Source: Thermoplasmata archaeon (GTDB lineage: Archaea; Thermoplasmatota; Thermoplasmata; Lutacidiplasmatales; UBA184). Taken from it: a stretch of 64,000 nt of DNA. Every line of letters begins with the position of its first letter. The stretch's first letter is position 1. A model generated the notes under the pieces. It did no database searches. It was given only the letters and a program-made list of their open reading frames with translations, and was not told the origin of the DNA. Shown in pieces: positions 1 to 15,959 of this stretch. The stretch is taken from the NCBI GenBank assembly GCA_028864975.1, contig JAGWLG010000009.1, positions 1 to 64,000 of the forward strand, given 5' to 3'. The position numbers and the translations under genes were made by a program.

Positions 1-2
1 GG

Positions 3-137
3 GAGGTGTACGGGTCCCTCGCTCACCTCGGAGAACGGTTCGGCCGGGTGGCCCCGGAGACCCTGGAGGATGCGAAAACTCTCCTCAGCCGTTCGGTGGC
101 TCCACCGTCAGGGCGCAAGGCTTGCGGTCAACAATAG
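3..137 (+). CDS. 3' end of an unidentified CDS entering from the left edge (EVYGSLAHLGERFGRVAPETLEDAKTLLSRSVAPPSGRKACGQQ*)
   Basis: Manually translated open frame from nt 3 to TAG at 135-137; too short to assign. Confidence 0.35.
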   Translation, partial: EVYGSLAHLGERFGRVAPETLEDAKTLLSRSVAPPSGRKACGQQ

Positions 138-307
138 GTCCAGAGGCCCTCCCCTCCCTCCAAGGCGTGGGCGTTCCAGCGACCCGGGAGGGTCAGCCGC
201 GGAGCATGAACCATCTCCAAGATCATGTGGTCGAACGCCTCCTTCGCCTCTGACGGCAAGCCCCGGACGGAAACGATCGCCTCCGGGCTCACTGTAACCT
301 GAACCAT
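128..307 (-). pseudogene. RelE/ParE-like toxin, apparently C-terminally truncated (59 aa)
   Basis: Manual translation MVQVTVSPEAIVSVRGLPSEAKEAFDHMILEMVHAPRLTLPGRWNAHALEGGEGLWTYC*. The ATG directly follows the upstream antitoxin stop (TGAATG). The H.LEG...LW segment resembles RelE, but the usual R-V-G-x-YR-x-x-Y strand is missing. Confidence 0.45.
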
Positions 308-526
308 TCAGTCCCGCCGAAGTCCCAGGCGAGGCCTCGCTTCGAGGTAGGGGACCGCAGGACGCCTCAGTTCCTCCTCGGCCCAGGCTAAGAATTGCGC
401 TGGGGGTATGGCGTCCATGAACTCCTTGAGCACCTCCGCGTAGGTCTTCCCCCCGACCTTGTAGACCTTCAGTCGGCTGAGAACCGAACTGGGGACCGTG
501 ATCGTCGTCGCCGTGCCGGAATGCAT
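308..526 (-). CDS. Small archaeal antitoxin-like DNA-binding protein (72 aa)
   Basis: MHSGTATTITVPSSVLSRLKVYKVGGKTYAEVLKEFMD matches the TTI.V....+..L...K..G.TY.EV+ pattern of archaeal RHH-type/VapB-like antitoxins; coupled to the downstream toxin-like ORF. Confidence 0.65.
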   Translation of the reverse strand: MHSGTATTITVPSSVLSRLKVYKVGGKTYAEVLKEFMDAIPPAQFLAWAEEELRRPAVPYLEARPRLGLRRD

Positions 527-596
527 CGGGATGACATTGTCGCAATTGCAGATAGCTATTGCCGGGGACGCCCCTGACACTCCACTCTCTCCCCTT

Positions 597-667
597 GGAT
601 CGAACCGCCCCGCGATTCGAATACTCGATGGGCCGGCGCGGATTCGACCGCTTGTGGTGGTGGGGAC
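597..667 (-). repeat. att-like junction A: tRNA-Val 3'-end copy with L1 arm and degenerate R1 inverted repeat
   Basis: tgggccggcgcggattcga at 629 (18/19 identical to the tRNA 3' end), cgcttgtggtggtggggac at 649-667, and GGATCGAACCGC/GCGATTCGAATAC at 597-624. Confidence 0.85.
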
Positions 668-681
668 TGCGAGTCTAGCCT

Positions 682-1032
682 TCAGCGGCGCTTCCGCCCC
701 GGGAACCACTTGTCATACGTAGCGTGGTCCACGATCCGTAAGATGACCACGACTTTTCGTCCGTCAAACCGAACGATAGTGTAGAGGAGACGCCAGAAGC
801 CTGGAAGGTCTTCCACGAAGAGGTTCTCTAGGCCGTAGGCAAGACGGAACGCGGCAGGAACGAATTTCCCCCGGACCACCTCCCCGTGCACGGCATCCCG
901 AAGGAGGATCGGCTTCAGGTCCCGCAAACGCCGAAGGACCGAAGCGGCCTCCGGCCGGGGGTCCTCGAGCAATCGGTCGAAGTCCTTGGCCGCGTCCTCG
1001 TTCAGGCGGACCTCGTCCGCGGGGACACCCAT
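682..1032 (-). CDS. Putative RelE/ParE-like toxin, copy 1 (116 aa)
   Basis: MGVPADEVRLN...LENLFVEDLPGFWRLLYTI...ILRIVDHATYDKWF. The start overlaps the antitoxin stop (TGATG). RelE-like secondary pattern; 99/116 aa identical to 4673-5023. Confidence 0.7.
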   Translation of the reverse strand: MGVPADEVRLNEDAAKDFDRLLEDPRPEAASVLRRLRDLKPILLRDAVHGEVVRGKFVPAAFRLAYGLENLFVEDLPGFWRLLYTIVRFDGRKVVVILRIVDHATYDKWFPGRKRR

Positions 1033-1331
1033 CAGAGCGGCCGCCCAGCGCGGATCGACCGCACGAGGCCCTCGGATGCGTGGGGAACCCACAGAATCCC
1101 CTTGCTTCCTTCCACGATGCACCCTTCGTCTGCCAGGAACCCTAGCACAGCGTTGAGGGTCGGCCGGTTCGTGCTGTGCCCCCACTGGGCAAGTGTCTCG
1201 AGGAGAATGTTGCGGCTCACCGGCTCACCAGCCAGCCGTAGCGCCCCTCGAACGTACTCGATGAGCTCGAGGGTGGGGTTCGCTCCCTTGCGCGCGTGCT
1301 CGAGGCGGGGAGGGTGGGTGGCGATGGCCAT
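1032..1331 (-). CDS. Winged-helix protein, putative antitoxin, copy 1 (99 aa)
   Basis: MAIATHPPRLEH...TLNAVLGFLADEGCIVEGSKGILWV shows a wHTH-like helix/wing. It lies upstream of and is translationally coupled to the toxin; 94/99 aa identical to 5023-5322. Confidence 0.7.
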   Translation of the reverse strand: MAIATHPPRLEHARKGANPTLELIEYVRGALRLAGEPVSRNILLETLAQWGHSTNRPTLNAVLGFLADEGCIVEGSKGILWVPHASEGLVRSIRAGRPL

Positions 1332-1502
1332 CAGTGTATGCATACGTGGAGTCCATATGAACATACAGTCCCCATCAGGTTTTCCTTCCGCACGGGCCTC
1401 ACGGCGACGCTCATCCTCCGCTGCGACCGTCCCCTCTTGCAAACCGCGACTGGCGATCCGGCTCCTGGCTCATCGAGGTCAAAGACCTCGGTTTGGCACA
1501 AA

Positions 1503-1576
1503 GGGACTGGAACCGCGATGGCGGTTCGAATCCACATGGGCCGGGGCGGACCCACCAGCAAACGGGTTTGAGTCCC
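1503..1576 (-). repeat. att-like junction B
   Basis: tgggccggggcgga at 1537 (14 nt identical to the tRNA 3' end), inverted repeat GGACTGGAACCGC-gatg-GCGGTTCGAATCC at 1504-1533, and an inverted T-arm-like gggtttgagtccc at 1564-1576. Confidence 0.85.
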
Positions 1577-1627
1577 CTCAATTCGCCACGATACGACTCT
1601 TGGGGACCCCGCGTAGGACACGAATAG

Positions 1628-2377
1628 ATGTACCAGCGACCTCTACTCGGAGCGATGAACACGACCCTTGCCACGCAAGCCGTGGTGTTCGACCTCTTTC
1701 ACACCTTGGTCACGCCCGAGGCGGTCCACGCCAACGCATACCTGCGAACTTCCCGCATGGCTGCCGCTCTGCGCCTCGACGCTGCCGATTTCGAACGCTG
1801 GTGGGTGGATTCAAAGGACGAACGAAACCGAGCTCGGAGCCCGACAGTCGCCGATCGCATTGCTCAATATTGCACCAGAATAGGTCGCCCGAGGACCGTG
1901 GGAGATGTCGAAGCCGCGCTCTTCGCAGCGGACCGATACCACGACGTTGCCATTCAGTTCCCCCCCTCGGAAGTACTGGGGGCATTGGCCCAACTCCGGA
2001 AGAGAAAGCTCCAAGTTGGGATTCTGAGCAACGCGGATGAACACGAGGTCCGTGCGTGGCCGGACTCCCCGATCGCTCGTCTTGTGGACGCTGCTTCGAT
2101 CTCGGTCGACTCCGGGCTCGTGAAGCCCGAGCCAGCGGCTTATCGAGGGATCCTAGCTGCCCTTGGAGGCGTATCACCCTCTGCTACGATGTACGTCGGG
2201 GACGGCGAGAGCGGCGAACTCGTAGCCGCCAAGCAGCTGGGTTTTCAACCGGTGGTCTTCATGAGAGGATTCGTGACGGGGAACGGGTTTCAGACACCAG
2301 CCAATATCCAGCAACTCTCGACCCAGGCGGACCACACGATAGACCGCATCGATGAGACACTGCAGTATCTGCGGTAG
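1628..2377 (+). CDS. HAD-superfamily hydrolase (cassette cargo)
   Basis: Motifs VVFDLFHTL, LSN, KP and YVGDG; the start may be the ATG at 1655. Confidence 0.85.
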   Translation: MYQRPLLGAMNTTLATQAVVFDLFHTLVTPEAVHANAYLRTSRMAAALRLDAADFERWWVDSKDERNRARSPTVADRIAQYCTRIGRPRTVGDVEAALFAADRYHDVAIQFPPSEVLGALAQLRKRKLQVGILSNADEHEVRAWPDSPIARLVDAASISVDSGLVKPEPAAYRGILAALGGVSPSATMYVGDGESGELVAAKQLGFQPVVFMRGFVTGNGFQTPANIQQLSTQADHTIDRIDETLQYLR

Positions 2378-2395
2378 GGGCCCACGGGATCCCAC

Positions 2396-2443
2396 AATTC
2401 GAAGTGGGCCGGGGCGGATTCGAACGCTTGTGGTGGTGGGGAC
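2396..2443 (-). repeat. att-like junction C
   Basis: tgggccggggcggattcgaac at 2405 (21 nt identical to the tRNA 3' end), cgcttgtggtggtggggac at 2425-2443, and an aattcgaag arm. Confidence 0.9.
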
Positions 2444-2564
2444 CATTGAACGCGGTTCTTTCCACGGTGGAGGTTCACTCGGCCAGGGGTCCTCGTCCCG
2501 CTCTCCCGCCCATGGGCGGGCGAAAGGGCATAGCCCAACAGAGGAATAGAGGGTCTCGTGAGCT

Positions 2565-3548
2565 ATGGCCAGCACCAAGTCTCGAAGGAGTACTTCCTCG
2601 AAGCCGATCTCCAAACCCCCCGAGGAAGGCTGGGCTCTCGCCAGGACCCGACCTCTAAGGGGGCAGGTGGCCGTGGTCGCGGGAGGCACGCGGGGGGCTG
2701 GTCGCGCAATTGCCGTCTCGCTCGGCCTTGCTGGGGCAACGGTCTACGTAACGGGGAGGAGCGTTCGAGGTCACCCCGCGACGCCCGGGCGCCCCGAAAC
2801 CATCGACCAGACCGCAGAGATGATCCGGGCGCTAGGTGGCCGTGCCGTCGCGGTGCGCGTCGACCATACCGAGGAGAGCGAAGTGCGTCGATTCTTCGAA
2901 CAGGTCCGGCGAGAGCAACGGGGGAAACTGGACGTCCTCGTCAACGACATCTGGGGCGGAGAACCGCTGATCGAGTGGGGCAAGGCACCTTGGGAGATGA
3001 CCTGGCGAATGGGTCGCACGCTCATTGAGCGCGCGGTGTTCACGCACATTCTGACGAGCCGCTATGCCGTTCCCCTCATGGTGGCCCGCAAGTCTGGGAC
3101 GATCTTCGAGGTTACCGACGGGGCGCATTTGCAATATCGTGGCAGCTACTTCTACGATTTTGTCAAGTCCTCAGTGATTCGGATGGCCCTCGCGTACCAT
3201 GAGGAATTTGAGGAGGCGGGGCTGCGGAGAATGAGCACGATAGCGGTAACCCCAGGATACCTCCGTTCGGAGTACATGCTCGATCAATTCGGGGTCAGAG
3301 AGGAGAATTGGCGAGACGGAATTCCGCAAGCAGGCCCGGGGTATCGCCACTCCGAGACTCCGTACTACTTGGCGCGGGGCGTGGTGGCGCTTGCCGCGGA
3401 CCCTATGCGAAGAAGGTATTCCGGAAAGGTCGTCGGGAGCTGGACGCTCGGGCACAGGTACGGGTTCACCGATAGGGATGGGACCCAGCCGGACTGGGGG
3501 GCGTACTTCTATCCCAAGTACATGAAAGGCGTCGAGCCCACCTCCTGA
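2565..3548 (+). CDS. Short-chain dehydrogenase/reductase, DHRS1-like (cassette cargo)
   Basis: VAVVAGGTRGAG nucleotide-binding motif, LDVLVND, and the YYDFVK (YxxxK) catalytic motif. Confidence 0.9.
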   Translation: MASTKSRRSTSSKPISKPPEEGWALARTRPLRGQVAVVAGGTRGAGRAIAVSLGLAGATVYVTGRSVRGHPATPGRPETIDQTAEMIRALGGRAVAVRVDHTEESEVRRFFEQVRREQRGKLDVLVNDIWGGEPLIEWGKAPWEMTWRMGRTLIERAVFTHILTSRYAVPLMVARKSGTIFEVTDGAHLQYRGSYFYDFVKSSVIRMALAYHEEFEEAGLRRMSTIAVTPGYLRSEYMLDQFGVREENWRDGIPQAGPGYRHSETPYYLARGVVALAADPMRRRYSGKVVGSWTLGHRYGFTDRDGTQPDWGAYFYPKYMKGVEPTS

Positions 3549-3631
3549 AGGACCCACGCCCAGCATGCTCTCGGGCAGCGGCGGGTGTTCGATTCTCGTG
3601 TTACCGCTCGAGGGCGACCGCCACGACCGAG

Positions 3632-3677
3632 AATTCAAATGGGCCGGGGTGGGTTCACAACGTCCGGCGGTTCGAAT
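3632..3677 (-). repeat. att-like junction D (most degenerate)
   Basis: tgggccggggtgggttc at 3640 (15/17 identical to the tRNA 3' end), an aattcaaa arm like junction C, and cggcggttcgaat at 3665-3677, a 13-nt tRNA T-arm match in inverted orientation. Confidence 0.7.
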
Positions 3678-3746
3678 GCCGCATGGGTACATGGTGCCGC
3701 CTGCTACGCACAAAGTGTATCTTCAGTCCCTGCTGATCGCTGCGCG

Positions 3747-3965
3747 ATGAAGTACGAAGAGTTCCGCGACGCGATCACGATCCATCTTCGCTTGCACCGG
3801 CGGGGCGCCACGTGGGCAGACCTCAAGGAGGGTCTGGGCCTTCCCCAACGGACGGCCTGCCCTACGTGGGTCCGCCGGATGGAGGAGGAGGTCGGCCTCC
3901 GCCGGGAGCACGGACCCGATGGCATGATCTGGCAGATCCGTGCGAAGAAGGGGGGTCGCAGGTGA
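3747..3965 (+). CDS. Small HTH-like hypothetical protein (72 aa)
   Basis: MKYEEFRDAITIHLRLHRRGATWADLKEGLGLPQRTACPTWVRRMEEEVGL shows a helix-turn-helix/wing-like pattern; its stop overlaps the dinB-like GTG. Confidence 0.6.
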   Translation: MKYEEFRDAITIHLRLHRRGATWADLKEGLGLPQRTACPTWVRRMEEEVGLRREHGPDGMIWQIRAKKGGRR

Positions 3966-4474
3966 CCGAACTCGAGGCCATCCGGACTTTCTTTCGGTTC
4001 AACTCCCGCGTTCGCCAAAATTACTTGGACACGATCCTAAAGCTTCCCTCAGACGAGCGCCTGAAGGACCGTGGCGCCTCCTTCCCCTCCCTCCAGGAGG
4101 TGTTTTGCCACGTGCTCGATGGCATCCGCTGGTGGGTAGAGTACGTTCCGCAGGATCGTGCGGCGGACGCGAATCAGCTCCCCGCTCGCGAACTCTCGCC
4201 GGAGCAACTCCGCGCAGAGACGGAGAAGGCCGACCGAATGGCGTTGGACTACGTCACCCATCTGACCGAGGCGGACATGACGAAGGACATGGTCTGTCAC
4301 TTTCCCGGTGATGACGGCCCACAGGAAGCACGCTTCCCGATCAAGGATGTCCTCTGGCATTTGGTCGAGGAGGAACTCCAGCACCGGGGCGAGCTCAATG
4401 CCCTCCTCTGGCAGATAGACGTGGAACCCCCCATCGCGAAAGTGGAGGATTGGAACGCATCGAAGGAGAAGTGA
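3962..4474 (+). CDS. DinB/YfiT family protein (170 aa)
   Basis: His motifs VFCHVL and LWHLVEEELQHRGELNALLWQ, typical of the DinB four-helix bundle. Confidence 0.85.
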   Translation: MTELEAIRTFFRFNSRVRQNYLDTILKLPSDERLKDRGASFPSLQEVFCHVLDGIRWWVEYVPQDRAADANQLPARELSPEQLRAETEKADRMALDYVTHLTEADMTKDMVCHFPGDDGPQEARFPIKDVLWHLVEEELQHRGELNALLWQIDVEPPIAKVEDWNASKEK

Positions 4475-4527
4475 ACGCCAACGGAGGATGCTTTCTAGGA
4501 GTCCTCCTGGTCTCGTCGTCTCGAGAT

Positions 4528-4599
4528 GGACTCGAACCGTCCTACGGTTCGAATCCTCCATGGGCCGGGGCGGATTCGGACGCTTGTGGTGGTGGGGAC
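4528..4599 (-). repeat. att-like junction E (best-preserved full unit)
   Basis: GGACTCGAACCGT-cct-ACGGTTCGAATCC (12/13 paired), tcca, tgggccggggcggattcg (18 nt identical to the tRNA 3' end), and cgcttgtggtggtggggac at 4581-4599. Confidence 0.9.
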
Positions 4600-4672
4600 A
4601 GCCAACCCCTGCCATCCGGTACCGGCATGGCACTCCCAGGCGGGAACGCGGGGCTTGAAGGGCGCGAGGAGG

Positions 4673-5023
4673 TCAGTGACGCTTTCGTCCCGGGAACCAC
4701 TTATCGTAGGTGGCATGGTCCACGATCCGAAGGATAAGCACGACCTTTCGTCCGTCGAATCGAACGATGGTATAGAGGAGGCGCCAGTAGCTTGGAAGGT
4801 CCTCCACGAAGAGGTTCTCCAGGTCGTAGGAAAGGCGGAGCGAGGAGGGGATGAATTTCCCACGTACGACCTCCCCGTGCAATGCATCTCGAAGGAGGAT
4901 CGGTTTCAGGTCCCGCACTCGCCGAAGGACCGATGCGGCCTCCGGCCGCGTATCTTCGACCAAGCGGTCGAAATCCCTAGTCCCATCCTCGTTCAGGCGG
5001 ACCTCGTCCGCAGGAACCCCCAT
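4673..5023 (-). CDS. Putative RelE/ParE-like toxin, copy 2 (116 aa)
   Basis: Paralog of 682-1032 with the same TGATG coupling. Confidence 0.7.
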   Translation of the reverse strand: MGVPADEVRLNEDGTRDFDRLVEDTRPEAASVLRRVRDLKPILLRDALHGEVVRGKFIPSSLRLSYDLENLFVEDLPSYWRLLYTIVRFDGRKVVLILRIVDHATYDKWFPGRKRH

Positions 5024-5322
5024 CAGAGCGACCGCCCCGCACGGATTGACCGCGCGAGGCCTTCCGAAGCCTGGGGGACCCACAGGATTCCCTTGCTCCC
5101 TTCGACGATGCACCCCTCGTCCGCCAGGAAACCCAGTACTGCGTTGAGGGTCGGCCGGTTCGTGCTGTGACCCCAATGGGCGAGTGTTTCGAGGAGAATG
5201 TTCCGGCTCACGGGCTCACCGGCCAGCCGCAGTGCTCCCCGAACGTACTCGATCATCTCGAGGGTGGGATTCGCACCCTTCCGGGCGTGCTCGAGGCGGG
5301 GAGGGTGGGTCGCAATGGCCAT
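5023..5322 (-). CDS. Winged-helix protein, putative antitoxin, copy 2 (99 aa)
   Basis: Paralog of 1032-1331; TATA-like TTTATA about 25 nt upstream on the minus strand (probably leaderless). Confidence 0.7.
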   Translation of the reverse strand: MAIATHPPRLEHARKGANPTLEMIEYVRGALRLAGEPVSRNILLETLAHWGHSTNRPTLNAVLGFLADEGCIVEGSKGILWVPQASEGLARSIRAGRSL

Positions 5323-5437
5323 CAGTGTATGTATGCGTAGAGCCCCTATAAACGTATACCCCCATGGAGGTCGTCTTCCCTAAGGGACCCTAGGCTCCCT
5401 GCACCTCGCGGGAGTTGCCCCTCTCGGTGGGTGTGAC

Positions 5438-5495
5438 GGGACTCGACCCCCCCCGGTTTCGAATCCTCCATGGGCCGGGGCGGATTCGAACCGCC
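5438..5495 (-). repeat. att-like junction F: intact tRNA 3' end followed by the R1 arm
   Basis: On the minus strand the tRNA end CCGGCCCA is followed by TGGAGGATTCGAAACC-G8-TCGAGTCCC, the same arm as at junctions A, B and E. Confidence 0.85.
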
Positions 5496-5543
5496 GATCT
5501 GCGCGTTGTAAGCGCGCCGTCATCACCCCTAGACCACCGGCCC
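5471..5543 (-). tRNA. tRNA-Val (TAC)
   Basis: GGGCCGGTGGTCTAGGGGTGATGACGGCGCGCTTACAACGCGCAGATCGGCGGTTCGAATCCGCCCCGGCCCA folds as a cloverleaf; anticodon loop CTTACAA; no encoded CCA. Confidence 0.97.
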
Positions 5544-5573
5544 GGATACCCGCGGAGGGTCGGTCCGAGTACA

Positions 5574-7442
5574 TCAACCGACCGGCGGAGCCTCGGGGGG
5601 AGATGGCACGGGTGGGGGGGCGGTGCTCCGTGTCCGCTCCTCACCGTGCGCTCGATGTCGGACCTTAACGACGAGACCCCGGGGAAGCCGCCCCATCCAT
5701 GGCCCCGGGACGCGGGCCTCTCCGACACCGAGAACCTCTCCGTTCCGAAGGAGGAGCACCTCGTCTCCCCGACGGAGCGCCGGGTCCCCCCGCTCTACCC
5801 CTGGGGCGAAGAGATCCCCCCGGAGCTCGACACCCCCCCGGACCTCGACCCGGTACCCGTCGGCGGCGCTCACGATCTTGCGAGCCCCCGGCACGGTCAA
5901 GCGCCAGAGCCCGGTCTCCTCCTTCCAGGTCGCGAGGTCCTGGTGGTCCGTGGAGATCAACCGCTGGAACCAGGGCCGTCCCATGAGCCGTACCTCCCCC
6001 TCGAACAGCCGGTCCGCGATGGTCGGCCCGAACTGGACCTGCGCCAGCGCCCGGAGCTCCTCGCGCACCCGCGCGAGCGGGCCCCCGGCCGCGGCGCGTT
6101 CCCTCGACAAGGCCAAGCGCCTCATCTCCGACGACAGGGCGGAGAGCGACGCGGAGGACGTCGTCGCGCTACCCTCGACCGTCCAGGCCACCTTCTCGGG
6201 GGGAAGGAGGTCCTTCAACCAGGCGTACTCCTCGCTTGGTAGGTGGGCGACGACCGCGCGATATCCTCCCGTTCTCAACAGATGCTGGAGCGCATCGCGC
6301 ACCCAGCGCCGCTCATCCTCGTCCCAGGCCCCGGTGACCGGGATGTCGTAGTTCCGGGCCGGGTAGACCGCTTCGAGCTCCCTCGGGACCAGGCCCAGGG
6401 GGGAGGTCACCGATGCCCAGTGGACACCCAGCCCCGGGGGCAGGCCCTCGAGCGAGCGCGCGATGCGCCGGTGGGTGGGCGAAGACGCGTACGGTTTGGT
6501 CTTCGAACAGGGGACCAGCAGGAGGGTCCGTTTGGAAGAGGGGGGACGGTACCGCTCCAGGAACCGTTGTCGGAAGCGTTCGACCTCGGGGCGGCGCAAA
6601 GCCTCCTTGGTCGTGTACGGGCGGACACCGGCCCCGGTCACGGGGGCATGAATCTCCTGGAACGGCGCCCCAAGGGTATCGTAGTAGCGCAGGAGCTCCC
6701 CACGGCAAGGCTCCGGGACCAGACGGGCCTCGACCAGTTCGCGAAGCCGACCTGCACCTGCGAAACGTCGCACCCGAGCAAGCTCGTCGAGGTACTCCTG
6801 TTCCACGGCGGCAGCCCGCTGGAGTAACGGGGGGCGTGCCCGCGCCGTGTCAGCCCCGTCCAGGTCCTCGGCATCCGCCGAGAGCTCTCTCCCTGCACCA
6901 GCGGCGAGAAGGCCCTGGGTCGTGTCCACTAGGTCGATCCCCATGGCGAAGAGCAACGAGAGCCTGCCGGGAGTAGCGACCCGAGGGGCCCAGAGCATGG
7001 GGGCAGGCCCCGCGGCCTCCCTCAGAGCGATCGCTCCTTTGACGAAACCCTCGGTATCGGTGAAAGTGGCACGGGCGTTCATCCAGACGACAAGGTCCCA
7101 CGGCTCCTCCCGAAGTGCCTGGGAGGTGGGTACGGAGAGCGGGGTCCTCACGCCGAGCACCCGAGGGGCCAGGCGCTGACCTGGCCCGGACGTCCCGGAG
7201 ACCTCAGGGACCGCGACCTCGACCGCCAGTTCGAGGACCCTCTCCCCTTGCCTCCACCGGAGGGCTCTCCGCATCGGGCCACCCGACCCTCCCTCCTCGA
7301 GGACCGCAACCCCGGGCTCCAGCGTCCGTTCCGCCGTTCCGCGCGGAGTGGACCTGAGCACGCCCGGAAGCGTGAGCTGCAGCTCGCCTACAGTGCCCTC
7401 CCCCACGAGGGTGGCCCCGTCGAGCCGGGAGCAGGAGCGCAT
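5574..7442 (-). CDS. arcS: Archaeosine synthase subunit alpha (TGT-like domain + DUF5591-type domain + PUA)
   Basis: LLLVPCSKTKPYASSPTH and SVTSPLGLVPRELEAVYPARNYDIPVTG motifs; C-terminal PUA (GDLFAPGV...GDEV). Confidence 0.9.
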   Translation of the reverse strand: MRSCSRLDGATLVGEGTVGELQLTLPGVLRSTPRGTAERTLEPGVAVLEEGGSGGPMRRALRWRQGERVLELAVEVAVPEVSGTSGPGQRLAPRVLGVRTPLSVPTSQALREEPWDLVVWMNARATFTDTEGFVKGAIALREAAGPAPMLWAPRVATPGRLSLLFAMGIDLVDTTQGLLAAGAGRELSADAEDLDGADTARARPPLLQRAAAVEQEYLDELARVRRFAGAGRLRELVEARLVPEPCRGELLRYYDTLGAPFQEIHAPVTGAGVRPYTTKEALRRPEVERFRQRFLERYRPPSSKRTLLLVPCSKTKPYASSPTHRRIARSLEGLPPGLGVHWASVTSPLGLVPRELEAVYPARNYDIPVTGAWDEDERRWVRDALQHLLRTGGYRAVVAHLPSEEYAWLKDLLPPEKVAWTVEGSATTSSASLSALSSEMRRLALSRERAAAGGPLARVREELRALAQVQFGPTIADRLFEGEVRLMGRPWFQRLISTDHQDLATWKEETGLWRLTVPGARKIVSAADGYRVEVRGGVELRGDLFAPGVERGDPALRRGDEVLLLRNGEVLGVGEARVPGPWMGRLPRGLVVKVRHRAHGEERTRSTAPPPVPSPPEAPPVG

Positions 7443-7531
7443 GGGCACCGTGGAGCCCAAGGGAGCTTGAAGCTCGCCCGGGGGCGCCGCGTCCCCCGCG
7501 GCCGTCGGCGGCGGCCGGCTGGACGCCCCGT

Positions 7532-7867
7532 CTAGCTCGACTTCTTGGTGCGGCCCCCGCGTTCCTGCGAGGGGAAGTAGGTCTGCCAGGCGTTGACCAG
7601 CGTCTCACGCCGCTCCGACCCCGCATCCTTCCGTCCCTTGCGGCCGAAGAGGGGGTCGTGGTTGTCTCGAACCACGCGGAGGAAGCTCTCCGGGTTCTGG
7701 CTCGCCAGTTCGAAACCGTAGAGCATGAACTCCCGCAGCAAGCTGGACCGCCCCCTCCACCCGATCCTCCGCCGGACCATCGGGTTGAGCGCTCGCTTCG
7801 CGAGCCTCCATACGTCGGTCGTCGTCTTGTAATCCTTGCCAGATAGGCCAATCATGACCTGCGGCAT
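7532..7867 (-). CDS. Small basic hypothetical protein, possible ribbon-helix-helix
   Basis: 111-aa ORF with a GGGGA RBS-like sequence and an upstream TTAAATA; strand-helix-helix pattern. Confidence 0.6.
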   Translation of the reverse strand: MPQVMIGLSGKDYKTTTDVWRLAKRALNPMVRRRIGWRGRSSLLREFMLYGFELASQNPESFLRVVRDNHDPLFGRKGRKDAGSERRETLVNAWQTYFPSQERGGRTKKSS

Positions 7868-8018
7868 TTCCCCTCGACGCTCCCAACTTAAGGACGGTAT
7901 TTAACTTCCGCTCGAGAGACCATATATCGGGGGGAACGAGATTCCCCGCCCGAGCCGTGCGAATATCTGCAAATCCGCTAGAATCCGAACAATTCCGCAG
8001 ATCTGAGGCCGTTCGCGC

Positions 8019-8900
8019 TCACAGGTAGAACAACACCACTGTGGCGAGGAAGACCCCTCCCATCGCGAAGTGGAGGCGGAAGAGCGGGAGCAGCCGCGGT
8101 CGTTTCGCCCTCAAGCCCAGCACCTCCGCCCCGGCGAGCGCCGCGACCCCCGCGAGCGGGAGCGCTACCCATGGGCTGAGGCCCCAGCTCTCGACCAAGA
8201 ACACTGTGAGCAGGACCGCGGCTCCGGCAAGGAGGCCCCCCACGAGATACGGGGTCCTCTTGGCTCCCAGCGAACGCGGCAGGGAGAAGAGCCCCTGCTC
8301 TTCGTCCGATGCGAGGTCGCCCAAGCTGTGGACCGATTCAAAGGCGGTCCCGAAGAGGACCATCGCCCCGACCGCCGTCCACGCGGCCAGAGGGACCGTG
8401 CCCATCACCGCGAGATACACCCCGGCGGGGAGCAGCGCCTGCACCGCTCCCAGGAGGACCGTGGTGGCCGGAGTGAACCTCTTCGTGTAGGAGTAGCCGA
8501 GCATCAGCGCGACGGCCGGGAGAGCAAGGACCGTCAGCCAGGGGTTGATGAGCAGCGCCGCGAGGAAGAAGACCGCCAGGTTGACCGCGACCACGGCCAC
8601 CGCTGCGCGGACCGAGAGCGTCCCCGTGACCAAGGGCCGGTCGCGGGTCCGCGGGTTCTTCGCATCGAACTCACGGTCCACCACCTGGTTGAACGCGTGG
8701 CCCGCATTGCGGGCTCCGATGAAGGCCAGCAGCACGAGCGTGGCCAGGGTCCACCCGGGGCGACCGTGGGCCGCCACGAGCAGGTAGGCGAGGGCGAAGA
8801 ACAGGTTGAGCCCCAGGTTGGGGACCATGAGGAGGGTCCCCAGGGCACGAAGCGACTCGAACCCCCGACGGGTGGCCGTCGCACCGTCCGTCGGCGCCAT
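8019..8900 (-). CDS. UbiA-family prenyltransferase (MqnP-like)
   Basis: ARNAGHAFNQVVDREFDAKNPRTRDRPL and YSYTKRF; multiple transmembrane segments. Confidence 0.9.
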   Translation of the reverse strand: MAPTDGATATRRGFESLRALGTLLMVPNLGLNLFFALAYLLVAAHGRPGWTLATLVLLAFIGARNAGHAFNQVVDREFDAKNPRTRDRPLVTGTLSVRAAVAVVAVNLAVFFLAALLINPWLTVLALPAVALMLGYSYTKRFTPATTVLLGAVQALLPAGVYLAVMGTVPLAAWTAVGAMVLFGTAFESVHSLGDLASDEEQGLFSLPRSLGAKRTPYLVGGLLAGAAVLLTVFLVESWGLSPWVALPLAGVAALAGAEVLGLRAKRPRLLPLFRLHFAMGGVFLATVVLFYL

Positions 8901-10384
8901 CAGGAGGGCGGGCGGGAAGGGAGAAGCCGGGAGAGCACTGGGTCGCTCTTCAGGAGCTCGTCAACTCGAGCGACGACCGCCGGGTCCATGCGCGCTTCCT
9001 CCGGCCAAGGTCGGGGGTAGCCCTCCTCCTTCCACTTCTTCGTGGCATCGATACCGAGCTTCCCTCCCTGGTTCTCTTCCCGGTTCGAGACGGAGAGCTG
9101 GTCGACCGGGCCGAAGACATGCTCGAGGTCCACCTGAGGGTCGGCCTGGAGCCCCACGCGGTAGAGCACTTCACCGTGGTCGTGGGGGTCCACGTCGTGG
9201 TCGACGACCACGATATAGCGCGTGAACATCATCTGTCCGAGCCCCCAGAGGGCGTGCATCACCTTCCGGGCGTGCTGGGGGTAGCTCTTCCGGATCGCGA
9301 CGATCGCCACGTTGATGAAGATCCCTTCCAGCGGCAGGTCGAGGTCGACGACCTCGGGAAGGACCGCTTGGATCACCGGAAGAAAGAGGCGGGAGACGGA
9401 CTGCCCCAGGATCGCGTCCTCGGTGGGGGGCTTCCCCGTGACCGTGGTGAGGTAGACAGGAGAGCTCCGGTGGGTGACGTGGGTGATGTGGATGACCGGG
9501 AACTCCTCGGGGAGCGAGTAGTAGCCGGTGTGGTCCCCGAAGGGGCCCTCGACATGGCGCTCCTTGGGGTCGGCGTACCCTTCGAGCACGATCTCCGCTT
9601 CGGCGGGCACCTCGAGCGGGACCGTCCTGCAGGGGACCAAGGGTAGGCTCTCTCCTCGAAGGAAGCCGGAGAAGGCAAAGCGGCTGATCCCTTCGGGGAC
9701 CGGTGAGAGCCCGGCGAAGACGGTCGCGGGGTCGGCTCCGATCACGACGGCCACCGGCATCCGTTCGCCCCGGCGCTGGTATCGTCGGAAGTTCTCAGCG
9801 CCAGCGCGGTGGGTCTGCCAGTGGGCCCCGAGCGTCGACGAGGAGTACTTCTGGAGCCGGTAGACCCCGACGGCATTGTCGCCGGTCTCGGGGTTCCGCG
9901 TCACGACCAGGGGGAAGGTGATGGTGGGCCCCCCGTCCTTCGGCCAACATGTCAGGATGGGGAGCTGGTCCAGATCCGGTCGGTCGGTCTCCTCTTCCTG
10001 GCAAGCACCCTTGTTCACGCGCTTGGGCGCGAGAGCGCGAAGCTGCTGGAGCTGCTCCAGCGTGCCCGCCGGGTCGGTGAGGATGGCCCCAAGACCTGCG
10101 GGGGGTCGGAACCGGAGGAGCCGGCGGATGCGCTCGGCCGGTTCGTCCACGGAGGACGCACCCAGGGCCGACGCGATCCTCCGGGGGGAGGCGAGCACGT
10201 TGATCGCGACGGGGATCTTCGAGCCCCCGACGTTCTCGAAGAGGAGGGCCGGCCCGTCGCGACGGAGCGCTCGGAGCGCGATCTCGGTGATCTCGAGCCG
10301 GGAGGCGACCTGGCTACGGACCCTCACAAGGTCGCCCTGGGATTCCAGAGCGCGAAGGAACTCCCCGAGGTTCTTCCAGGCCAT
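8900..10384 (-). CDS. UbiD-family decarboxylase (menaquinone biosynthesis, MqnL-like)
   Basis: EAEIVLEG, EGPFGDHTGYY and GKPPTED motifs; directly upstream of the UbiA gene. Confidence 0.9.
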   Translation of the reverse strand: MAWKNLGEFLRALESQGDLVRVRSQVASRLEITEIALRALRRDGPALLFENVGGSKIPVAINVLASPRRIASALGASSVDEPAERIRRLLRFRPPAGLGAILTDPAGTLEQLQQLRALAPKRVNKGACQEEETDRPDLDQLPILTCWPKDGGPTITFPLVVTRNPETGDNAVGVYRLQKYSSSTLGAHWQTHRAGAENFRRYQRRGERMPVAVVIGADPATVFAGLSPVPEGISRFAFSGFLRGESLPLVPCRTVPLEVPAEAEIVLEGYADPKERHVEGPFGDHTGYYSLPEEFPVIHITHVTHRSSPVYLTTVTGKPPTEDAILGQSVSRLFLPVIQAVLPEVVDLDLPLEGIFINVAIVAIRKSYPQHARKVMHALWGLGQMMFTRYIVVVDHDVDPHDHGEVLYRVGLQADPQVDLEHVFGPVDQLSVSNREENQGGKLGIDATKKWKEEGYPRPWPEEARMDPAVVARVDELLKSDPVLSRLLPSRPPS

Positions 10385-10466
10385 GGCGCCTCCCCCGGAC
10401 CCCGGGTCGGAGCGACGGACGTTCCTCTGGCTATTTGAACCGAGGGGCGTTCACGGGTGAACCCCG

Positions 10467-11180
10467 ATGCAGACCGTCACTCTCGAGATGCCGACGGAGG
10501 CGCTGGTGGCGCTGGGGCTGCTCCCGGAGGGCTTCTTCCGGCAGTTCGAGGAACTGGAGCTCGTCGAGACCCTGGGGCTCGAGCCGAGATGGCGTCTCCA
10601 GGTCCTGCGGCTCCGGTCCCGCGGTCCCCCGAGGTCCTCCCGAGAGCTCTCGGAGCGCCAGAAGGAGCTGCAGAGAACCTACGACCTGGAGCGGCTCGAG
10701 CTCCTCGAGTCGCGCCCACGAAGCCGTGACCAGTTCTTCCTCGTGCGCCAGAGGAACCCGGGCCCTGTCCAGTCCCTGGTCGACCTCGCGGGGGGCGAGG
10801 TCTTCCCGGGCCGCCCCTTCCTTCTTCGGGAGCGGACGACCCTCGCTTCGTTGCGGGGCGACCCCAAGGTGATCCGGCGTCTGCTCGAGCGGCTGAAGGG
10901 TCTGGAGGTCCCCTACCGCCTTCGGCGCGTGCGCGGAGGGGTTGGCCCGGCCGAAGAGGAGCCCGACGCGGTCGCCCTCACCCCGCGGCAGGTCGAGGTC
11001 CTTCGGGAGGCCGCGCGCCGAGGGTTCTATGACGTCCCGAGGAAGACCTCGCTCTCGGAGCTTGCCCGCCGGCTCCACCGCAGCCCGGCGGCCGTGGGGA
11101 AGGTGCTCCGAAGGGCCGAAGGGACCCTGGCGCAGGAGCACCTTCGGCGGGTCGCCCCCGCGGCCACCGAAGCGGACTGA
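10467..11180 (+). CDS. Bat-type (HTH_10) transcriptional regulator
   Basis: C-terminal LTPRQVEVLREAARRGFYDVPRKTSLSELARRL...LRRAE. Confidence 0.85.
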   Translation: MQTVTLEMPTEALVALGLLPEGFFRQFEELELVETLGLEPRWRLQVLRLRSRGPPRSSRELSERQKELQRTYDLERLELLESRPRSRDQFFLVRQRNPGPVQSLVDLAGGEVFPGRPFLLRERTTLASLRGDPKVIRRLLERLKGLEVPYRLRRVRGGVGPAEEEPDAVALTPRQVEVLREAARRGFYDVPRKTSLSELARRLHRSPAAVGKVLRRAEGTLAQEHLRRVAPAATEAD

Positions 11181-11313
11181 CCGTCGTCGGGCCGGTGGTC
11201 GCAAGTGAGATGCCCCTTAGTTCCTCCAGCCCACCATGCCCTCGAGATCCCTAGGAGGAGCCTCCCCCCAACGCCACCGCCGCCGCACTTCCCAGGGAAA
11301 GGGCCGCGGGGCC

Positions 11314-11775
11314 TTGCCCCGTCACACGTTACCGATCGCCACGCACTTCGATGTCGAGATCGAACGGATGCCGGACGCCCCTGCGGCACGGGTCCCCGTG
11401 AAGGCGACGGAGGATTCTGCGTGCTTCGACCTCTACGCCGCCCACGACGCGGAGCTCCTGCCAGGCCAAGTGACCCTGGTCCGTACGGGGCTCAAGATGC
11501 GGGCGCCCCCCGGGACGTTCCTCGAGATCCGACCTCGCAGCGGGCTCTCGACGAAGGGCGTCATCATGGTGAACGCGCCCGGCACCATCGACCGCGACTA
11601 TCCCCAGGAGGTGAAGGTCCCGCTCTCGGTCCTCTTCGGAGGGCCACGGACCCTGCGGGCAGGCGAGCGCGTCGCCCAGATGCGCGTGGTCCCGGAGGCT
11701 CGGACCGGCTTCCGGTGGGGGAGGGTCGAAGCAACGACCGACCGCGAAGGGGGCTTTGGTAGCACCGGCGCCTGA
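11314..11775 (+). CDS. dut: dUTP diphosphatase (trimeric type)
   Basis: Motifs ACFDL, RSGLS, GTIDRDY, GERVAQ and GGFGSTG; start uncertain (the ORF extends to 11236). Confidence 0.92.
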
Positions 11776-11828
11776 CCGGGGAGGTCGCTCACCTTAAGGC
11801 GCGACCTGTTTCGTCCCCGCAGAGGACC

Positions 11829-12323
11829 GTGACCCCCCTTGTGGCCATCCTGATGGGCTCCAAGTCGGACTGGCCAGTCCTCGAGACCGGGGCGAAGGTC
11901 CTGGACACGCTCAAGGTCCCCTACGAGGTGCGTGTCCTCTCCGCCCACCGTGCGCCGGACGCGCTCGCGGACTACGTGAAGGGCGCGGAGAAGCGGGGGA
12001 TCGAAGTGATCATCGCGGCGGCGGGGGGCGCCGCGCACCTCCCCGGGGTCGCTGCCGCCCACACCATCCTCCCTGTTCTCGGGGTCCCCATCGCAACCTC
12101 CTCGTTCCAAGGAATGGACTCGCTCCTGTCGATCGTCCAGATGCCCTCCGGGATCCCGGTGGGCACCGTCGCCGTGGGGAAGGCCGGGCCCGTGAACGCG
12201 GCGCTGCTTGCCGCGGAGATCCTGGGGGGCAAGCACCCGGAGGTCCGGGAAGCCGTGCGGCGTTACCGCGAGAACCTCACGAAGGAGGCCCTCGCTCACC
12301 CGGATCCGAGGGAGGCGGCCTGA
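11829..12323 (+). CDS. purE: N5-carboxyaminoimidazole ribonucleotide mutase
   Basis: [21 protein letters not shown] and [11 protein letters not shown]. Confidence 0.97.
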
Positions 12324-12336
12324 GCCCGCTGGCACC

Positions 12337-13824
12337 ATGACAGCCCAAGACCTCGCGCCCTTCCGGCTCGCCCCGAACGGGAAGAAGCTCGTCACGGTGA
12401 TCCCGGGGGACGGGGTGGGTCCTGAGATCGTGGCGGCGACCCGTCGGGTGCTCGAGGCGGCGAAGGCTCCCATCGAGTGGGAGGAGCGTCGGGCCGGGGC
12501 GGAGGTCTTCAAGGAAGGGCTCGCCTCGGGGGTCCCGACCGACACGATCGAGTCCATCCGAAGGACCCGGGTGGTCCTCAAAGGTCCCCTCGAGACCCCG
12601 GTCGGCTTCGGGGAGAAGAGCGCGAACGTCACGTTGCGCAAGCTCTTCGAGACCTTCGCGAACATCCGTCCCGTGAAGGAGCTCCCCGGGGTCCGTACCC
12701 CGTTCAGTGGTCGCGGCATCGACATGGTGATCGTCCGCGAGAACGTCGAGGACGTCTACGCGGGGATCGAGTACAAGGAAACTCCCGGGGTCGCGCAAGC
12801 CCTCAAGCTCGTGAGCCGCAAGGGGTGCGAGAAGATCGTCCGCTTGGCCTTCGAGCTCGCCCGGGCCGAGGGGCGGAGGAAGGTCCACTGCGCGACCAAG
12901 TCGAACATTCTCAAGCTGACCGAAGGGATGCTGAAGCGCACCTTCGAGGACGTGTCGAAGGAGTACCCCGACATCGAAGCCGCCCACATCATCATCGACA
13001 ACTGCGCCCACCAGCTGGTGAAGGCGCCCGAGCAGTTCGACGTGATCGTCACGACGAACATGAACGGCGACATCATCAGCGACGAGGGAAGCGCTCTGGT
13101 CGGGGGATTGGGGTTCGCGCCCTCCGCCAACCTGGGCAACGACGTCAGCATCTTCGAGGCGGTGCACGGCTCCGCGCCTAAATACGCCGGGAAGAACGTG
13201 ATCAATCCGACGGCCCTCATCCTGACGTCGGTCCTCCTGCTCCGCCATCTCCAGGAGTTCGGGGTGGCCTCGAACGTCGAGAACGCGGTGGTCGCGACGC
13301 TCGCGGGTGGCAAGGTCGCGACGCGCGATGTCGTCGGCGACGCCCTTGCGGCAAGCACCAGCGCCTTCGCGGAGGCGGTGATCTCGAACCTGGGCCGGGC
13401 CCCGCCCACCGGGTGGAAGGTCCGGCAGTATCGGGCACTCCAAATGCCCCATGTCCCCTCCGCGCCGGCCCGCGTCGTGCCCAAGTCCCGCCGGACCCTG
13501 GGGGTGGACGTCTTCGTCGAGAGCTCGACCGATGCGAGGACGCTGGGGACGGAGCTCCAGAAGCTCGTTCAGGGGACCCCCCTCGTGCTCCACGGCATCT
13601 CCAACCGAGGCACCCTGGTCTTCCCTCCCAGCGATGCGATGACGGATGTGGTCGACCACTGGCAGTGCCGCTTCCTCTTGTCCGACGGCCAGAGGGAGGT
13701 GCCCGAGGAGGCGCTGATCACGCTCCTCCAGCGCATCGCCGCCCGCCATCGGTGGGTGGCCACGGAGCGTCTCCAGGAGTTCGAGGGGACCCCGGCCTTC
13801 ACCCGTCCGCAAGGCGAGGACTGA
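12337..13824 (+). CDS. icd: Isocitrate dehydrogenase (NADP), long bacterial type with C-terminal extension
   Basis: IPGDGVGPEI, LKGPLETPVGFGEKSANV, RENVEDVYAGIE and FEAVHGSAP. Confidence 0.9.
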   Translation: MTAQDLAPFRLAPNGKKLVTVIPGDGVGPEIVAATRRVLEAAKAPIEWEERRAGAEVFKEGLASGVPTDTIESIRRTRVVLKGPLETPVGFGEKSANVTLRKLFETFANIRPVKELPGVRTPFSGRGIDMVIVRENVEDVYAGIEYKETPGVAQALKLVSRKGCEKIVRLAFELARAEGRRKVHCATKSNILKLTEGMLKRTFEDVSKEYPDIEAAHIIIDNCAHQLVKAPEQFDVIVTTNMNGDIISDEGSALVGGLGFAPSANLGNDVSIFEAVHGSAPKYAGKNVINPTALILTSVLLLRHLQEFGVASNVENAVVATLAGGKVATRDVVGDALAASTSAFAEAVISNLGRAPPTGWKVRQYRALQMPHVPSAPARVVPKSRRTLGVDVFVESSTDARTLGTELQKLVQGTPLVLHGISNRGTLVFPPSDAMTDVVDHWQCRFLLSDGQREVPEEALITLLQRIAARHRWVATERLQEFEGTPAFTRPQGED

Positions 13825-13842
13825 CGCCCTCCCGGTCGTTCC

Positions 13843-14340
13843 ATGACCGGTGGCGGGGGCTGGGTGCTCCGAGTGGGCCTAGGGCACCATCGGCCCGCCC
13901 CGGGACGGTCCTACCATGGCATGGTCTACCTCTTCCCTCCCGGCTCCACGACCCCCACCCTTGGGCGTACCGAGGTCCCACCCGGCCTGCCGCTCTGGTA
14001 CTTGACCCGGGCAGACCGGACCCTCCAGGACCTACGTCGTCGAGGAGAGCGGCTCCCCCCTGACCGCCGGTACTTGAAGGCCTGGGCCCGGGCGGTCCGG
14101 CCCCTGGAGGTCAACATCGAGGTGAGCGACCTGGGCACGGTCCTTCAGGCCCGTTACCGGATACCCGAGGGGATCTGGCTTCTGGGGCGCTTCGAGCAGG
14201 AGGCGAAGGGCGAGGAGCCGGTACGGGAGGAGCGCCTCTGGTGCGTGCGAGACCCCCCGCCCGCAGGCTTCGAGATGGCCCTGGGGGCCGTCAGGTTCCA
14301 CATGCACGTGGAGCGTCAAGGACAAGAAGAGGAAGCGTGA
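13843..14340 (+). CDS. Hypothetical protein
   Basis: In-operon ORF with plausible codon usage; possible start at 13921. Confidence 0.55.
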   Translation: MTGGGGWVLRVGLGHHRPAPGRSYHGMVYLFPPGSTTPTLGRTEVPPGLPLWYLTRADRTLQDLRRRGERLPPDRRYLKAWARAVRPLEVNIEVSDLGTVLQARYRIPEGIWLLGRFEQEAKGEEPVREERLWCVRDPPPAGFEMALGAVRFHMHVERQGQEEEA

Positions 14341-14359
14341 TGCGTCCTTCCGAGGACCC

Positions 14360-15088: not shown

Positions 15089-15239
15089 TCCCACCGAGGG
15101 CTCGAGCTGCCGCGGTGCCTATGAGCGCTCCTCCGGGGGCTGGGGGAGTCCGCGAGGGCGGATCCATGCAACTTATCGTGCCCAGAGAAGGCGCTCCTCT
15201 ATCTGTCTCTCCCGTTGCCGATCCTCAGGGCGGGCCACC

Positions 15240-15932: not shown

Positions 15933-15959
15933 CGCAGGGGACCTCGTCCGGCCGACCGC

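What the first reader, a model, noticed from the sequence alone, without database searches (positions are those of the whole stretch)
649..4599. Identical 19-bp arm (cgcttgtggtggtggggac) shared by the ends of three cassettes with different cargo
SEEN: the same 19-mer abuts the tRNA-derived core at 649-667, 2425-2443 and 4581-4599. It replaces the tRNA variable-loop/T-arm sequence at the distal end (relative to the tRNA) of TA cassette 1, the SDR cassette and TA cassette 2. It is perfectly conserved although the two TA cassettes have diverged to about 85% toxin identity and the SDR cassette is unrelated. INFERENCE: this is not tRNA sequence, so it is a cassette-family terminal signal, probably an arm-type or accessory binding site. 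It implies a shared mobilisation machinery rather than independent chance insertions.
Basis: partly seen in the sequence, partly recalled or inferred. Interest (0 to 1): 0.8.

Follow-up and report, generated by a model that had tools for sequence, protein, structure and literature searches.

The report
Conserved end-arm of tRNA-anchored gene cassettes
The repeated 19-base sequence is the outer arm of the junction sites that separate small, integrase-less gene cassettes stacked behind a valine tRNA gene in an uncultured Thermoplasmata archaeon. It marks one cassette subfamily and probably docks a recombination protein that has not been identified.

Summary
The 19-mer occurs exactly three times in the window and nowhere else in the 3.6-Mb genome. 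Each copy abuts a copy of the last 20 nt of tRNA-Val(UAC).

It is the element-side arm of "class A" junctions in an array of at least five cassettes. There are probably nine once contig C36 is counted. Cargo includes ParE-like TA pairs, HAD, SDR and DinB.

The same arm sits in the same context in two other species of the genus. Two copies there are 39/39 identical despite flanks of about 75% identity. It was found in no other genus, in no virus collection and in no metagenome record.

Four diverged copies show that only the distal GGTGGGGAC is constrained (1/36 changes). The proximal 10 nt drift (14/40 changes) and the spacing never changes. This fits a position-fixed protein-recognition box.

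Other cassettes use other arms (classes B and C). Cassette content turns over between genomes whose flanks are 96% identical.

No recombinase lies near any array, no excision joint was seen, and binding is untested. The scan has already noted similar integrase-less tRNA-anchored arrays in other Thermoplasmata.

Verdict: a real feature and a new variant of known att-site and CIME-like architecture. The mechanism is inferred.

The parts
5471..5543 (-). tRNA-Val(UAC) gene, the anchor of the array. Its last 13-14 nt (5471-5484) form the core shared by all junctions.
   Evidence: ARAGORN; Rfam tRNA, 67.5 bits
649..667 (+). 19-mer, class A arm, copy 1. It is the tRNA-distal end of TA cassette 1.
2425..2443 (+). 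19-mer, class A arm, copy 2. It is the tRNA-distal end of the SDR cassette.
4581..4599 (+). 19-mer, class A arm, copy 3. It is the tRNA-distal end of TA cassette 2.
629..648 (+). Copy of the tRNA 3' end (20 nt, 2 mismatches), junction J1
2405..2424 (+). Copy of the tRNA 3' end (20 nt, exact), junction J3
4561..4580 (+). Copy of the tRNA 3' end (20 nt, 1 mismatch), junction J5
1537..1577 (+). Junction J2: a 14-nt core followed by a 27-nt class B arm. It is the end of the HAD cassette.
   Evidence: The B arm is conserved in G001, G002, G003 and C46.
3640..3690 (+). Junction J4: a degenerate core followed by a class C arm (T-arm followed by its inverted copy). It is the end of the DinB cassette.
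   Evidence: The same arm class occurs in other genera.
4528..4560 (+). P'1 hairpin arm on the tRNA-proximal side of the DinB cassette: a 12-13 bp palindrome that includes an inverted copy of the T-loop. Equivalent arms lie at 597-628, 1504-1536 and 5439-5470.
682..1331 (-). TA cassette 1 genes: ParE-like toxin at 682-1032 and antitoxin at 1032-1331
1628..2377 (+). HAD-family hydrolase (cargo of a class B cassette)
2565..3548 (+). Short-chain dehydrogenase (cargo of a class A cassette)
3747..4474 (+). A small ORF plus a DinB-family protein (cargo of the class C cassette)
4673..5322 (-). TA cassette 2 genes: toxin at 4673-5023 and antitoxin at 5023-5322
128..532 (-). Right part of a further TA-like cassette, cut by an IS at about 138. 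It is homologous to cassettes in G001 and G002.

Best explanation
The 19-mer is the element-side arm (the 'P' arm in attP terms) of the junction sites of one subfamily, class A, of miniature integrase-less integrative cassettes. These cassettes have been stacked one after another at the 3' end of tRNA-Val(UAC). Each junction has three parts: the tRNA-proximal arm of the older cassette, a 13-14-nt crossover core copied from the tRNA (T-stem 3' strand plus acceptor 3' strand), and the tRNA-distal arm of the younger cassette.

In class A the distal arm consists of the rest of the T-loop (6 nt), a 10-nt spacer of free sequence and fixed length, and the constrained box GGTGGGGAC. This box ends 39 nt from the start of the core.

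I infer that the box is a position-fixed docking site for a recombinase, or a partner of one, that acts in trans. It would either extend the enzyme's footprint or serve as an arm-type accessory site that tells a cassette junction apart from the bare tRNA gene.

Shown: the anatomy, the conservation pattern, the exclusive tRNA-fragment context and the turnover of cassettes. Inferred: protein binding, the position of the crossover and the identity of the enzyme.
For: Context. The 19-mer has three exact copies and occurs only beside tRNA-Val 3' fragments. Two variant copies lie at junctions on contig C36.

Other species. Two exact copies and one variant sit in the G002 array at tRNA-Val, and one variant sits in G003. 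Core plus arm is 39/39 identical between G000 and G002, whereas the syntenic flank is 71-80% identical. The cargo next to these arms is unrelated.

Constraint. The four variant arms have 14/40 changes in the first 10 nt and 1/36 in the last 9 (Fisher p = 3.6e-4). None of the nine copies has an indel.

Position of the crossover. The 6-nt T-loop remnant and the first base next to the core vary between junctions, while the 13-nt core does not. This places the exchange inside the core and places the arms on the element side.

Mobility. G001 and G002 flanks are 96% identical, but their arrays differ in order and content, and homologous cassettes are only 69-72% identical. A 242-nt metagenome contig carries another class A junction in a different context.

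Literature. For archaeal integrases the shared att stretch alone is not sufficient for recombination, so flanking sequence matters (PMC8371274).
Against: No recombinase gene lies in or beside the arrays of G000, G001, G002 or G003. No excision or circular joint was seen, although only assembled contigs were available.

Within the window, the perfect identity of three copies is only marginally more than drift predicts: about 2.9 changes expected and 0 seen.

The copies are few (nine) and come from one genus, so shared ancestry or conversion between junctions could inflate the apparent conservation. The class assignment of variant arms was made by eye.

GGTGGGGAC is not enriched in the genome as a whole (130 seen, 124.5 expected).
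Confidence: 0.6

Rival explanations
1. The 19-mer is a passive relic. It is simply the flank of the attP of one founder element, copied along with cassettes or homogenised by homologous recombination or conversion between junctions. It has no present function, and the arrays are fossils.
For: No recombinase is nearby. No joints were seen. G001 carries only a truncated remnant. The feature is restricted to one genus. Within-genome identity is only marginally significant.
Against: The variants split sharply into a drifting spacer and an invariant distal box of fixed length. The arm is 39/39 identical across species whose flanks are about 75% identical. Arrays differ between genomes whose flanks are 96% identical.
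Confidence: 0.25
2. The 19-mer is the remnant of a second attachment site. Read on the tRNA strand, it looks like an acceptor 3' strand followed by a discriminator A and CCA. It could therefore be the scar of an earlier stay in another tRNA gene.
For: The reverse complement contains a 7-nt C-rich stretch followed by A and CCA (reading).
Against: No tRNA of this genome ends that way. A T-loop-anchored pattern found no tRNA-like match in 41 genomes (G000 plus 40 relatives). Nothing beyond the 19-mer is shared between copies. Archaeal tRNA genes of this genome do not encode CCA.
Confidence: 0.05
3. The 19-mer is an expression or RNA-level signal, such as a terminator, a processing site or a small RNA attached to the tRNA-like fragment.
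For: It lies 14 nt and 73 nt downstream of the two toxin stop codons.
Against: In the SDR cassette it lies 122 nt upstream of a gene on the other strand, so its fixed relation is to the core and not to the genes. There is no consistent fold (z-scores from -0.2 to -2.4, and the 19-mer is unpaired or pairs differently in each copy). There is no Rfam match other than the tRNA itself, and no oligo-T tract.
Confidence: 0.05

Closest known systems
attL/attR junctions of tRNA-targeting integrative elements (tyrosine-integrase islands, Islander-type; archaeal cases reviewed in PMC8371274)
   Same: Direct copies of the tRNA 3' end bracket inserted DNA. The tRNA gene is regenerated. Element-specific sequence abuts the shared core.
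   Different: The units are 0.65-1.2 kb with one or two genes. None carries an integrase, and none was found nearby. The arms are shared among cassettes with unrelated cargo.
CIMEs and tandem accretion at att sites (ICESt1 family; PMC5704250)
   Same: The elements are att-flanked, lack their own integrase and are stacked in tandem at the 3' end of a tRNA gene.
   Different: CIMEs are decay products of large ICEs or IMEs and move with a helper integrated alongside. Here every unit is uniformly tiny, keeps both arms, and no helper or decayed integrase is visible. The host is an archaeon.
Integron cassette arrays and CALINs, including archaeal integrons (PMC9668308)
   Same: An array of small, swappable cassettes of one or two genes (TA systems, small enzymes) separated by conserved recombination-type sites, often without an integrase nearby.
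   Different: The junction cores are copied from a tRNA 3' end and are not attC sites with GTTRRRY cores. There is no IntI or attI. The cassettes point both ways and carry their own promoters.
Tycheposon islands of Prochlorococcus (bioRxiv 10.1101/2020.12.28.424599)
   Same: tRNA-anchored islands built by repeated integration, with partial tRNAs scattered through them.
   Different: Tycheposons carry integrases and replication modules and are much larger.

Membership tests
tRNA-targeting integrative element junction (attL/attR) | Direct repeats identical to the tRNA 3' end flank the inserted DNA | tested here: met
   There are five fragment copies plus the gene in the window.
tRNA-targeting integrative element junction (attL/attR) | An intact tRNA gene is regenerated at one end | tested here: met
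tRNA-targeting integrative element junction (attL/attR) | A cognate integrase is encoded by the element | tested here: not met
   Pfam scans of cassette ORFs. PF00589 genome scans. A local recombinase HMM run on the arrays and on the tRNA-Val loci fetched from 20 relatives, 14 of them with about 13 kb downstream of the gene.
tRNA-targeting integrative element junction (attL/attR) | The insert is variable or absent in related genomes | tested here: met
CIME / tandem accretion | att-flanked, lacking integration genes, in tandem at one att site | tested here: met
CIME / tandem accretion | Derived by decay from an integrase-bearing element, with a helper that has the cognate integrase | tested here: inconclusive
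   No integrase remnant or helper was found at this tRNA in the four genomes of the genus or in the loci fetched from 20 relatives, 14 of them with about 13 kb downstream of the gene. MAG incompleteness (85-90%) leaves room for one.
Integron / CALIN | attC sites with inverse core sites (RYYYAAC ... GTTRRRY) | tested here: not met
   The junction table shows tRNA-derived cores and no such core sites.
Integron / CALIN | IntI integrase with adjacent attI and promoter | tested here: not met
   No tyrosine recombinase lies beside the array. The neighbour is an ArcS-like gene.
Xer/dif-exploiting elements (IMEX, pdif modules) | The junction resembles the host dif site (about 11-bp inverted arms with a 6-8 bp spacer) | tested here: inconclusive
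   At P'1-type junctions, 12-nt inverted arms flank a 9-nt spacer centred on the acceptor strand. The host dif site could not be identified. XerA-like is the only tyrosine recombinase seen in G001 and G002.

The most novel reading that the evidence does not exclude
The whole junction is about 72 nt long: the P'1 hairpin with its T-loop mimic, the 13-nt tRNA core, and the class A arm ending in the GGGGAC box. It may be a self-contained, attC-like recombination site. A recombinase that is host-encoded (for example XerA-like) or still unrecognised would then shuffle promoter-bearing mini-cassettes at tRNA genes across Thermoplasmata. That would be an archaeal, tRNA-anchored analogue of the integron. 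The 19-mer would be its outer boundary and its subfamily-specific recognition element.
Probability: 0.2. Interest if true: 0.85.

Novelty: new variant of a known kind. Interest (0 to 1): 0.55.

Why it matters
If the arm is a docking site, it offers a concrete handle for finding the missing enzyme: a 9-nt box at fixed spacing from a 13-nt tRNA core. That enzyme would be what moves integrase-less mini-cassettes in Thermoplasmata. This scan keeps meeting the same phenomenon at other tRNA genes, and I found no paper describing it. Such a system would explain how these archaea collect toxin-antitoxin pairs and small enzyme genes without visible mobile-element machinery.

Tried and rejected
1. Single-strand folding of four junctions on both strands. 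The 19-mer has no consistent partner, and only the P'1 hairpin folds reproducibly.

2. Rfam on 1-6000 and on the C46 site. Only the tRNA matched.

3. The second-tRNA-remnant idea. No matching tRNA end was found.

4. Collection scans. In genome contigs only the two congeners are real hits, and the eight bacterial hits are chance matches to the degenerate pattern. The two metagenome-contig hits are chance matches. Three viral contigs patterns gave nothing relevant.

It gave no usable candidate.

6. Laying public runs on the window. Only assembled contigs were available. No joints were seen, and this says nothing about rare excision.

7. Empty-site comparison for the off-site C46 cassette. Its flanks are not syntenic in the relatives.

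8. Hairpin-pattern scan of 401 genomes of the class. There was one unrelated hit.

The contexts of the 47 toxin homologues, including a 91%-identical allele on a 995-nt contig, could not be read.

10. Complex prediction and the structure tools were not used, because there is no candidate protein partner to test.
Full report
OBSERVATION. The 19-mer lies at 649-667, 2425-2443 and 4581-4599 on the + strand. No other site in the window matches with up to three mismatches, and 0.04 matches are expected by chance. In the whole 3.6-Mb, 124-contig assembly (window = contig C6:1-64000) it occurs only at these three places.

Each copy is preceded by a copy of the last 20 nt of tRNA-Val(UAC), read on the opposite strand. 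The gene lies at 5471-5543 on the minus strand. Identity to the tRNA stops at the 5' edge of the T-loop, so the 19-mer stands where the T-stem 5' strand and the variable loop would be.

Sequence beyond each 19-mer is unrelated. TA cassettes 1 and 2 are 84.7% identical in DNA, 86% in the toxin and 95% in the antitoxin. Contigs assembled independently from four public runs (mine drainage and soil, two studies) show the same arrangement.

ANATOMY. The organism is an archaeon: its tRNAs carry introns, and its congeners are titled Thermoplasmata MAGs. Between the tRNA and the contig start there are six junctions.

- J1 (629), J3 (2405) and J5 (4561) carry the 19-mer. I call this class A.
- J2 (1537) shares only 14 nt with the tRNA and then has a different 27-nt arm (class B).
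- J4 (3640) has a third arm, in which the T-arm is followed by its own inverted copy (class C).
- J6 is the gene itself.

The cargo is as follows: a ParE-like TA pair (682-1331), a HAD hydrolase (1628-2377), an SDR (2565-3548), a small ORF plus DinB (3747-4474), and a second TA pair (4673-5322).

On the side of each core facing away from the tRNA body, several junctions carry a hairpin arm (P'1). It includes an inverted copy of the T-loop, so 12-nt inverted arms flank a 9-nt spacer centred on the acceptor strand.

Under the standard attP x attB model, each cassette runs from its distal arm (A, B or C), just after one core, to its P' arm, just before the next core. The youngest cassette lies next to the tRNA.

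The 13-nt core is almost invariant. The T-loop remnant, and the base on the other side of the core, vary from junction to junction. This places strand exchange inside the core and places the arms on the element side. That step is an inference.

MORE COPIES. Contig C36 (5.4 kb) holds three further junctions in the order A-variant, B-like, A-variant. Its last cassette is cut by an IS that has a 10-bp target duplication. The window starts inside an IS end: positions 1-139 have double depth and several alternative continuations. C36 3493-3657 and window 137-560 match adjacent parts of one G002 cassette. C36 is therefore probably the continuation of the array, which would give about nine cassettes in all. 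This is an inference.

IN RELATIVES. A spacing-preserving pattern was searched in 61 genomes. It matched only in the genus.

- G002 has two exact copies of the 19-mer plus core. A core search of its array and the collection scan add one variant copy. All three lie in a seven-junction array at its tRNA-Val.
- G003 has one variant at its tRNA-Val.
- G001 has only a truncated remnant.

The far side of the tRNA (an ArcS-like gene and onward) is syntenic in all four genomes at 71-80% identity (96% between G001 and G002). The array side is not syntenic.

A scan of one genome per prokaryote species found only these two congeners. Its eight bacterial hits are chance matches to the degenerate pattern. 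The metagenome and viral collections gave nothing real. A 242-nt metagenome contig at lower depth carries one more class A junction in a different context.

Neither occurred.

WHAT IS CONSTRAINED. Five copies are identical (three in G000, two in G002). Four are diverged (C36 x2, G003, G002). In the diverged copies, 14 of 40 positions differ in the first 10 nt but only 1 of 36 in the last 9 nt (GGTGGGGAC); Fisher p = 3.6e-4. None of the nine copies has an indel.

One homologous cassette pair (C36 versus G002, 76% identical) shows this directly. Its arms differ at 5 positions, all within the first 8 nt of the 19-mer.

The 9-mer is not enriched genome-wide (130 seen, 124.5 expected). Its meaning therefore lies in its fixed position: it ends 39 nt from the start of the core.

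Three caveats apply. There are few copies. They come from one genus. I assigned the arm classes by eye.

OTHER ARMS. The class B arm is conserved over its 27 nt in all four species and at an off-site cassette on C46. Its last 12-13 nt are the reverse complement of the outer box of the P'1 hairpin. The GGGGAC that ends the 19-mer equals the first six bases of that box, in the same orientation as P'1 (reading).

Class C arms recur behind tRNA-Val in other genera of the family. Six of nine class A cassettes end in a P'1 hairpin, compared with one or two of eight class B cassettes. This suggests a common cassette backbone.

MOBILITY. G001 and G002 have 96%-identical flanks. Their arrays nevertheless differ in order and number, and their homologous cassettes are only 69-72% identical. 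The cassettes were therefore exchanged rather than inherited in place.

The toxin family occurs in 38 of 401 Thermoplasmata genomes. In another family it sits just downstream of an intron-bearing tRNA-Lys(CUU) and is followed by a tRNA-Lys 3' fragment. G000 also has a tRNA-Lys-like 13-nt core followed by a P'1-like hairpin on C83.

Many tRNA-Val contigs of the family end within 2 kb after the gene, as expected for repeat-rich, variable DNA.

THE ENZYME. I did not find it. G000 has seven tyrosine recombinase genes, and none is near the array. G001 and G002 show only an XerA-like one.

None lies in the arrays, or in the DNA fetched downstream of tRNA-Val from 20 relatives (about 13 kb in 14 of them, less in six whose contigs end sooner). 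None lies beside the tRNA-Lys cassettes either. No excision joint was seen, but only assembled contigs could be laid.

The tallies include unpublished genomes (G028, G070, G082). No positive claim rests on them.

ALTERNATIVES. A structural or RNA role is unlikely. The arm keeps its relation to the core and not to gene orientation. It does not fold consistently and has no Rfam match.

A second tRNA scar is unsupported.

A passive relic cannot be excluded. The split between spacer and box, and the cross-species identity, argue against it.

COMPARISON. The arrangement works like attL/attR junctions of tRNA-targeting elements stacked by tandem accretion. CIMEs are the closest named concept (PMC5704250). 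In cassette size and cargo it resembles integron or CALIN arrays (PMC9668308). It fails integron membership because it has no attC cores and no IntI. It fails ordinary island membership because it has no integrase.

Archaeal work shows that the shared att stretch alone is insufficient for recombination (PMC8371274). This fits a functional flanking arm.

Earlier notes of this scan describe similar integrase-less arrays at tRNA-Ala, -Leu, -Arg, -Thr, -Gly, -Glu and -Val in other Thermoplasmata. I treated these as leads only.

VERDICT. The feature is real. The 19-mer is the subfamily-specific distal arm of cassette junctions, and its last nine bases form a position-fixed, probably protein-recognised box. 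The mechanism is inferred and the enzyme is unknown.

Noticed in passing
window 1-139; L004 (C36) 3658-5277: The window begins inside an IS end. It has double read depth and several alternative continuations. A 20-bp terminal sequence is shared, inverted, with C36. On C36 a second IS (a 370-aa, weakly IS5-like transposase) is inserted with a 10-bp target duplication. This probably explains the contig break inside the array.
   Followed up: partly
L037 (G000:C73) 5000-16100: Tandem modules of a tyrosine recombinase gene followed by an archaeal ATPase gene (ATPase_2 + DUF234). There are four full-length recombinase paralogues, further fragments and three such ATPase genes, with conserved upstream repeats. 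No link to the tRNA-Val array was found.
   Followed up: partly
L005 (G000:C46) 8153-9272: A HEPN + MNT cassette with a class B arm and a palindrome-plus-TATA promoter arm sits away from any tRNA, between degenerate core copies. Homologous cassettes lie in the tRNA-Val arrays of G001, G002 and G003. This is a possible secondary-site insertion or a translocation.
   Followed up: partly
G000:C83:17625-17684 (L041): A 13-nt tRNA-Lys-like 3' core followed by a P'1-like hairpin, next to a DinB-family gene and a large ATPase gene. The same kind of arm is therefore used at a second tRNA specificity.
   Followed up: partly
L078 (G270:C101) 9666-10982; L079 (G323:C3) 9096-9672: In another Thermoplasmata family, an intron-bearing tRNA-Lys(CUU) is followed by a small cassette and then a tRNA-Lys 3' fragment. 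In L078 that cassette holds a homologue of the toxin; in L079 the toxin gene lies beyond the fragment. No integrase is nearby.
   Followed up: partly
L096, L086, L101 (tRNA-Val loci of other genera): A G-run/C-run palindrome lies 10-20 nt downstream of tRNA-Val in several genera, even where no second core copy is present. It may be a native trailer hairpin or another cassette arm type.
   Followed up: no
window 5574-7460 (-): The conserved neighbour on the 5' side of the tRNA is an ArcS-like protein (DUF5591 + TGT_C2 + PUA), which is a tRNA-modification enzyme.
   Followed up: no
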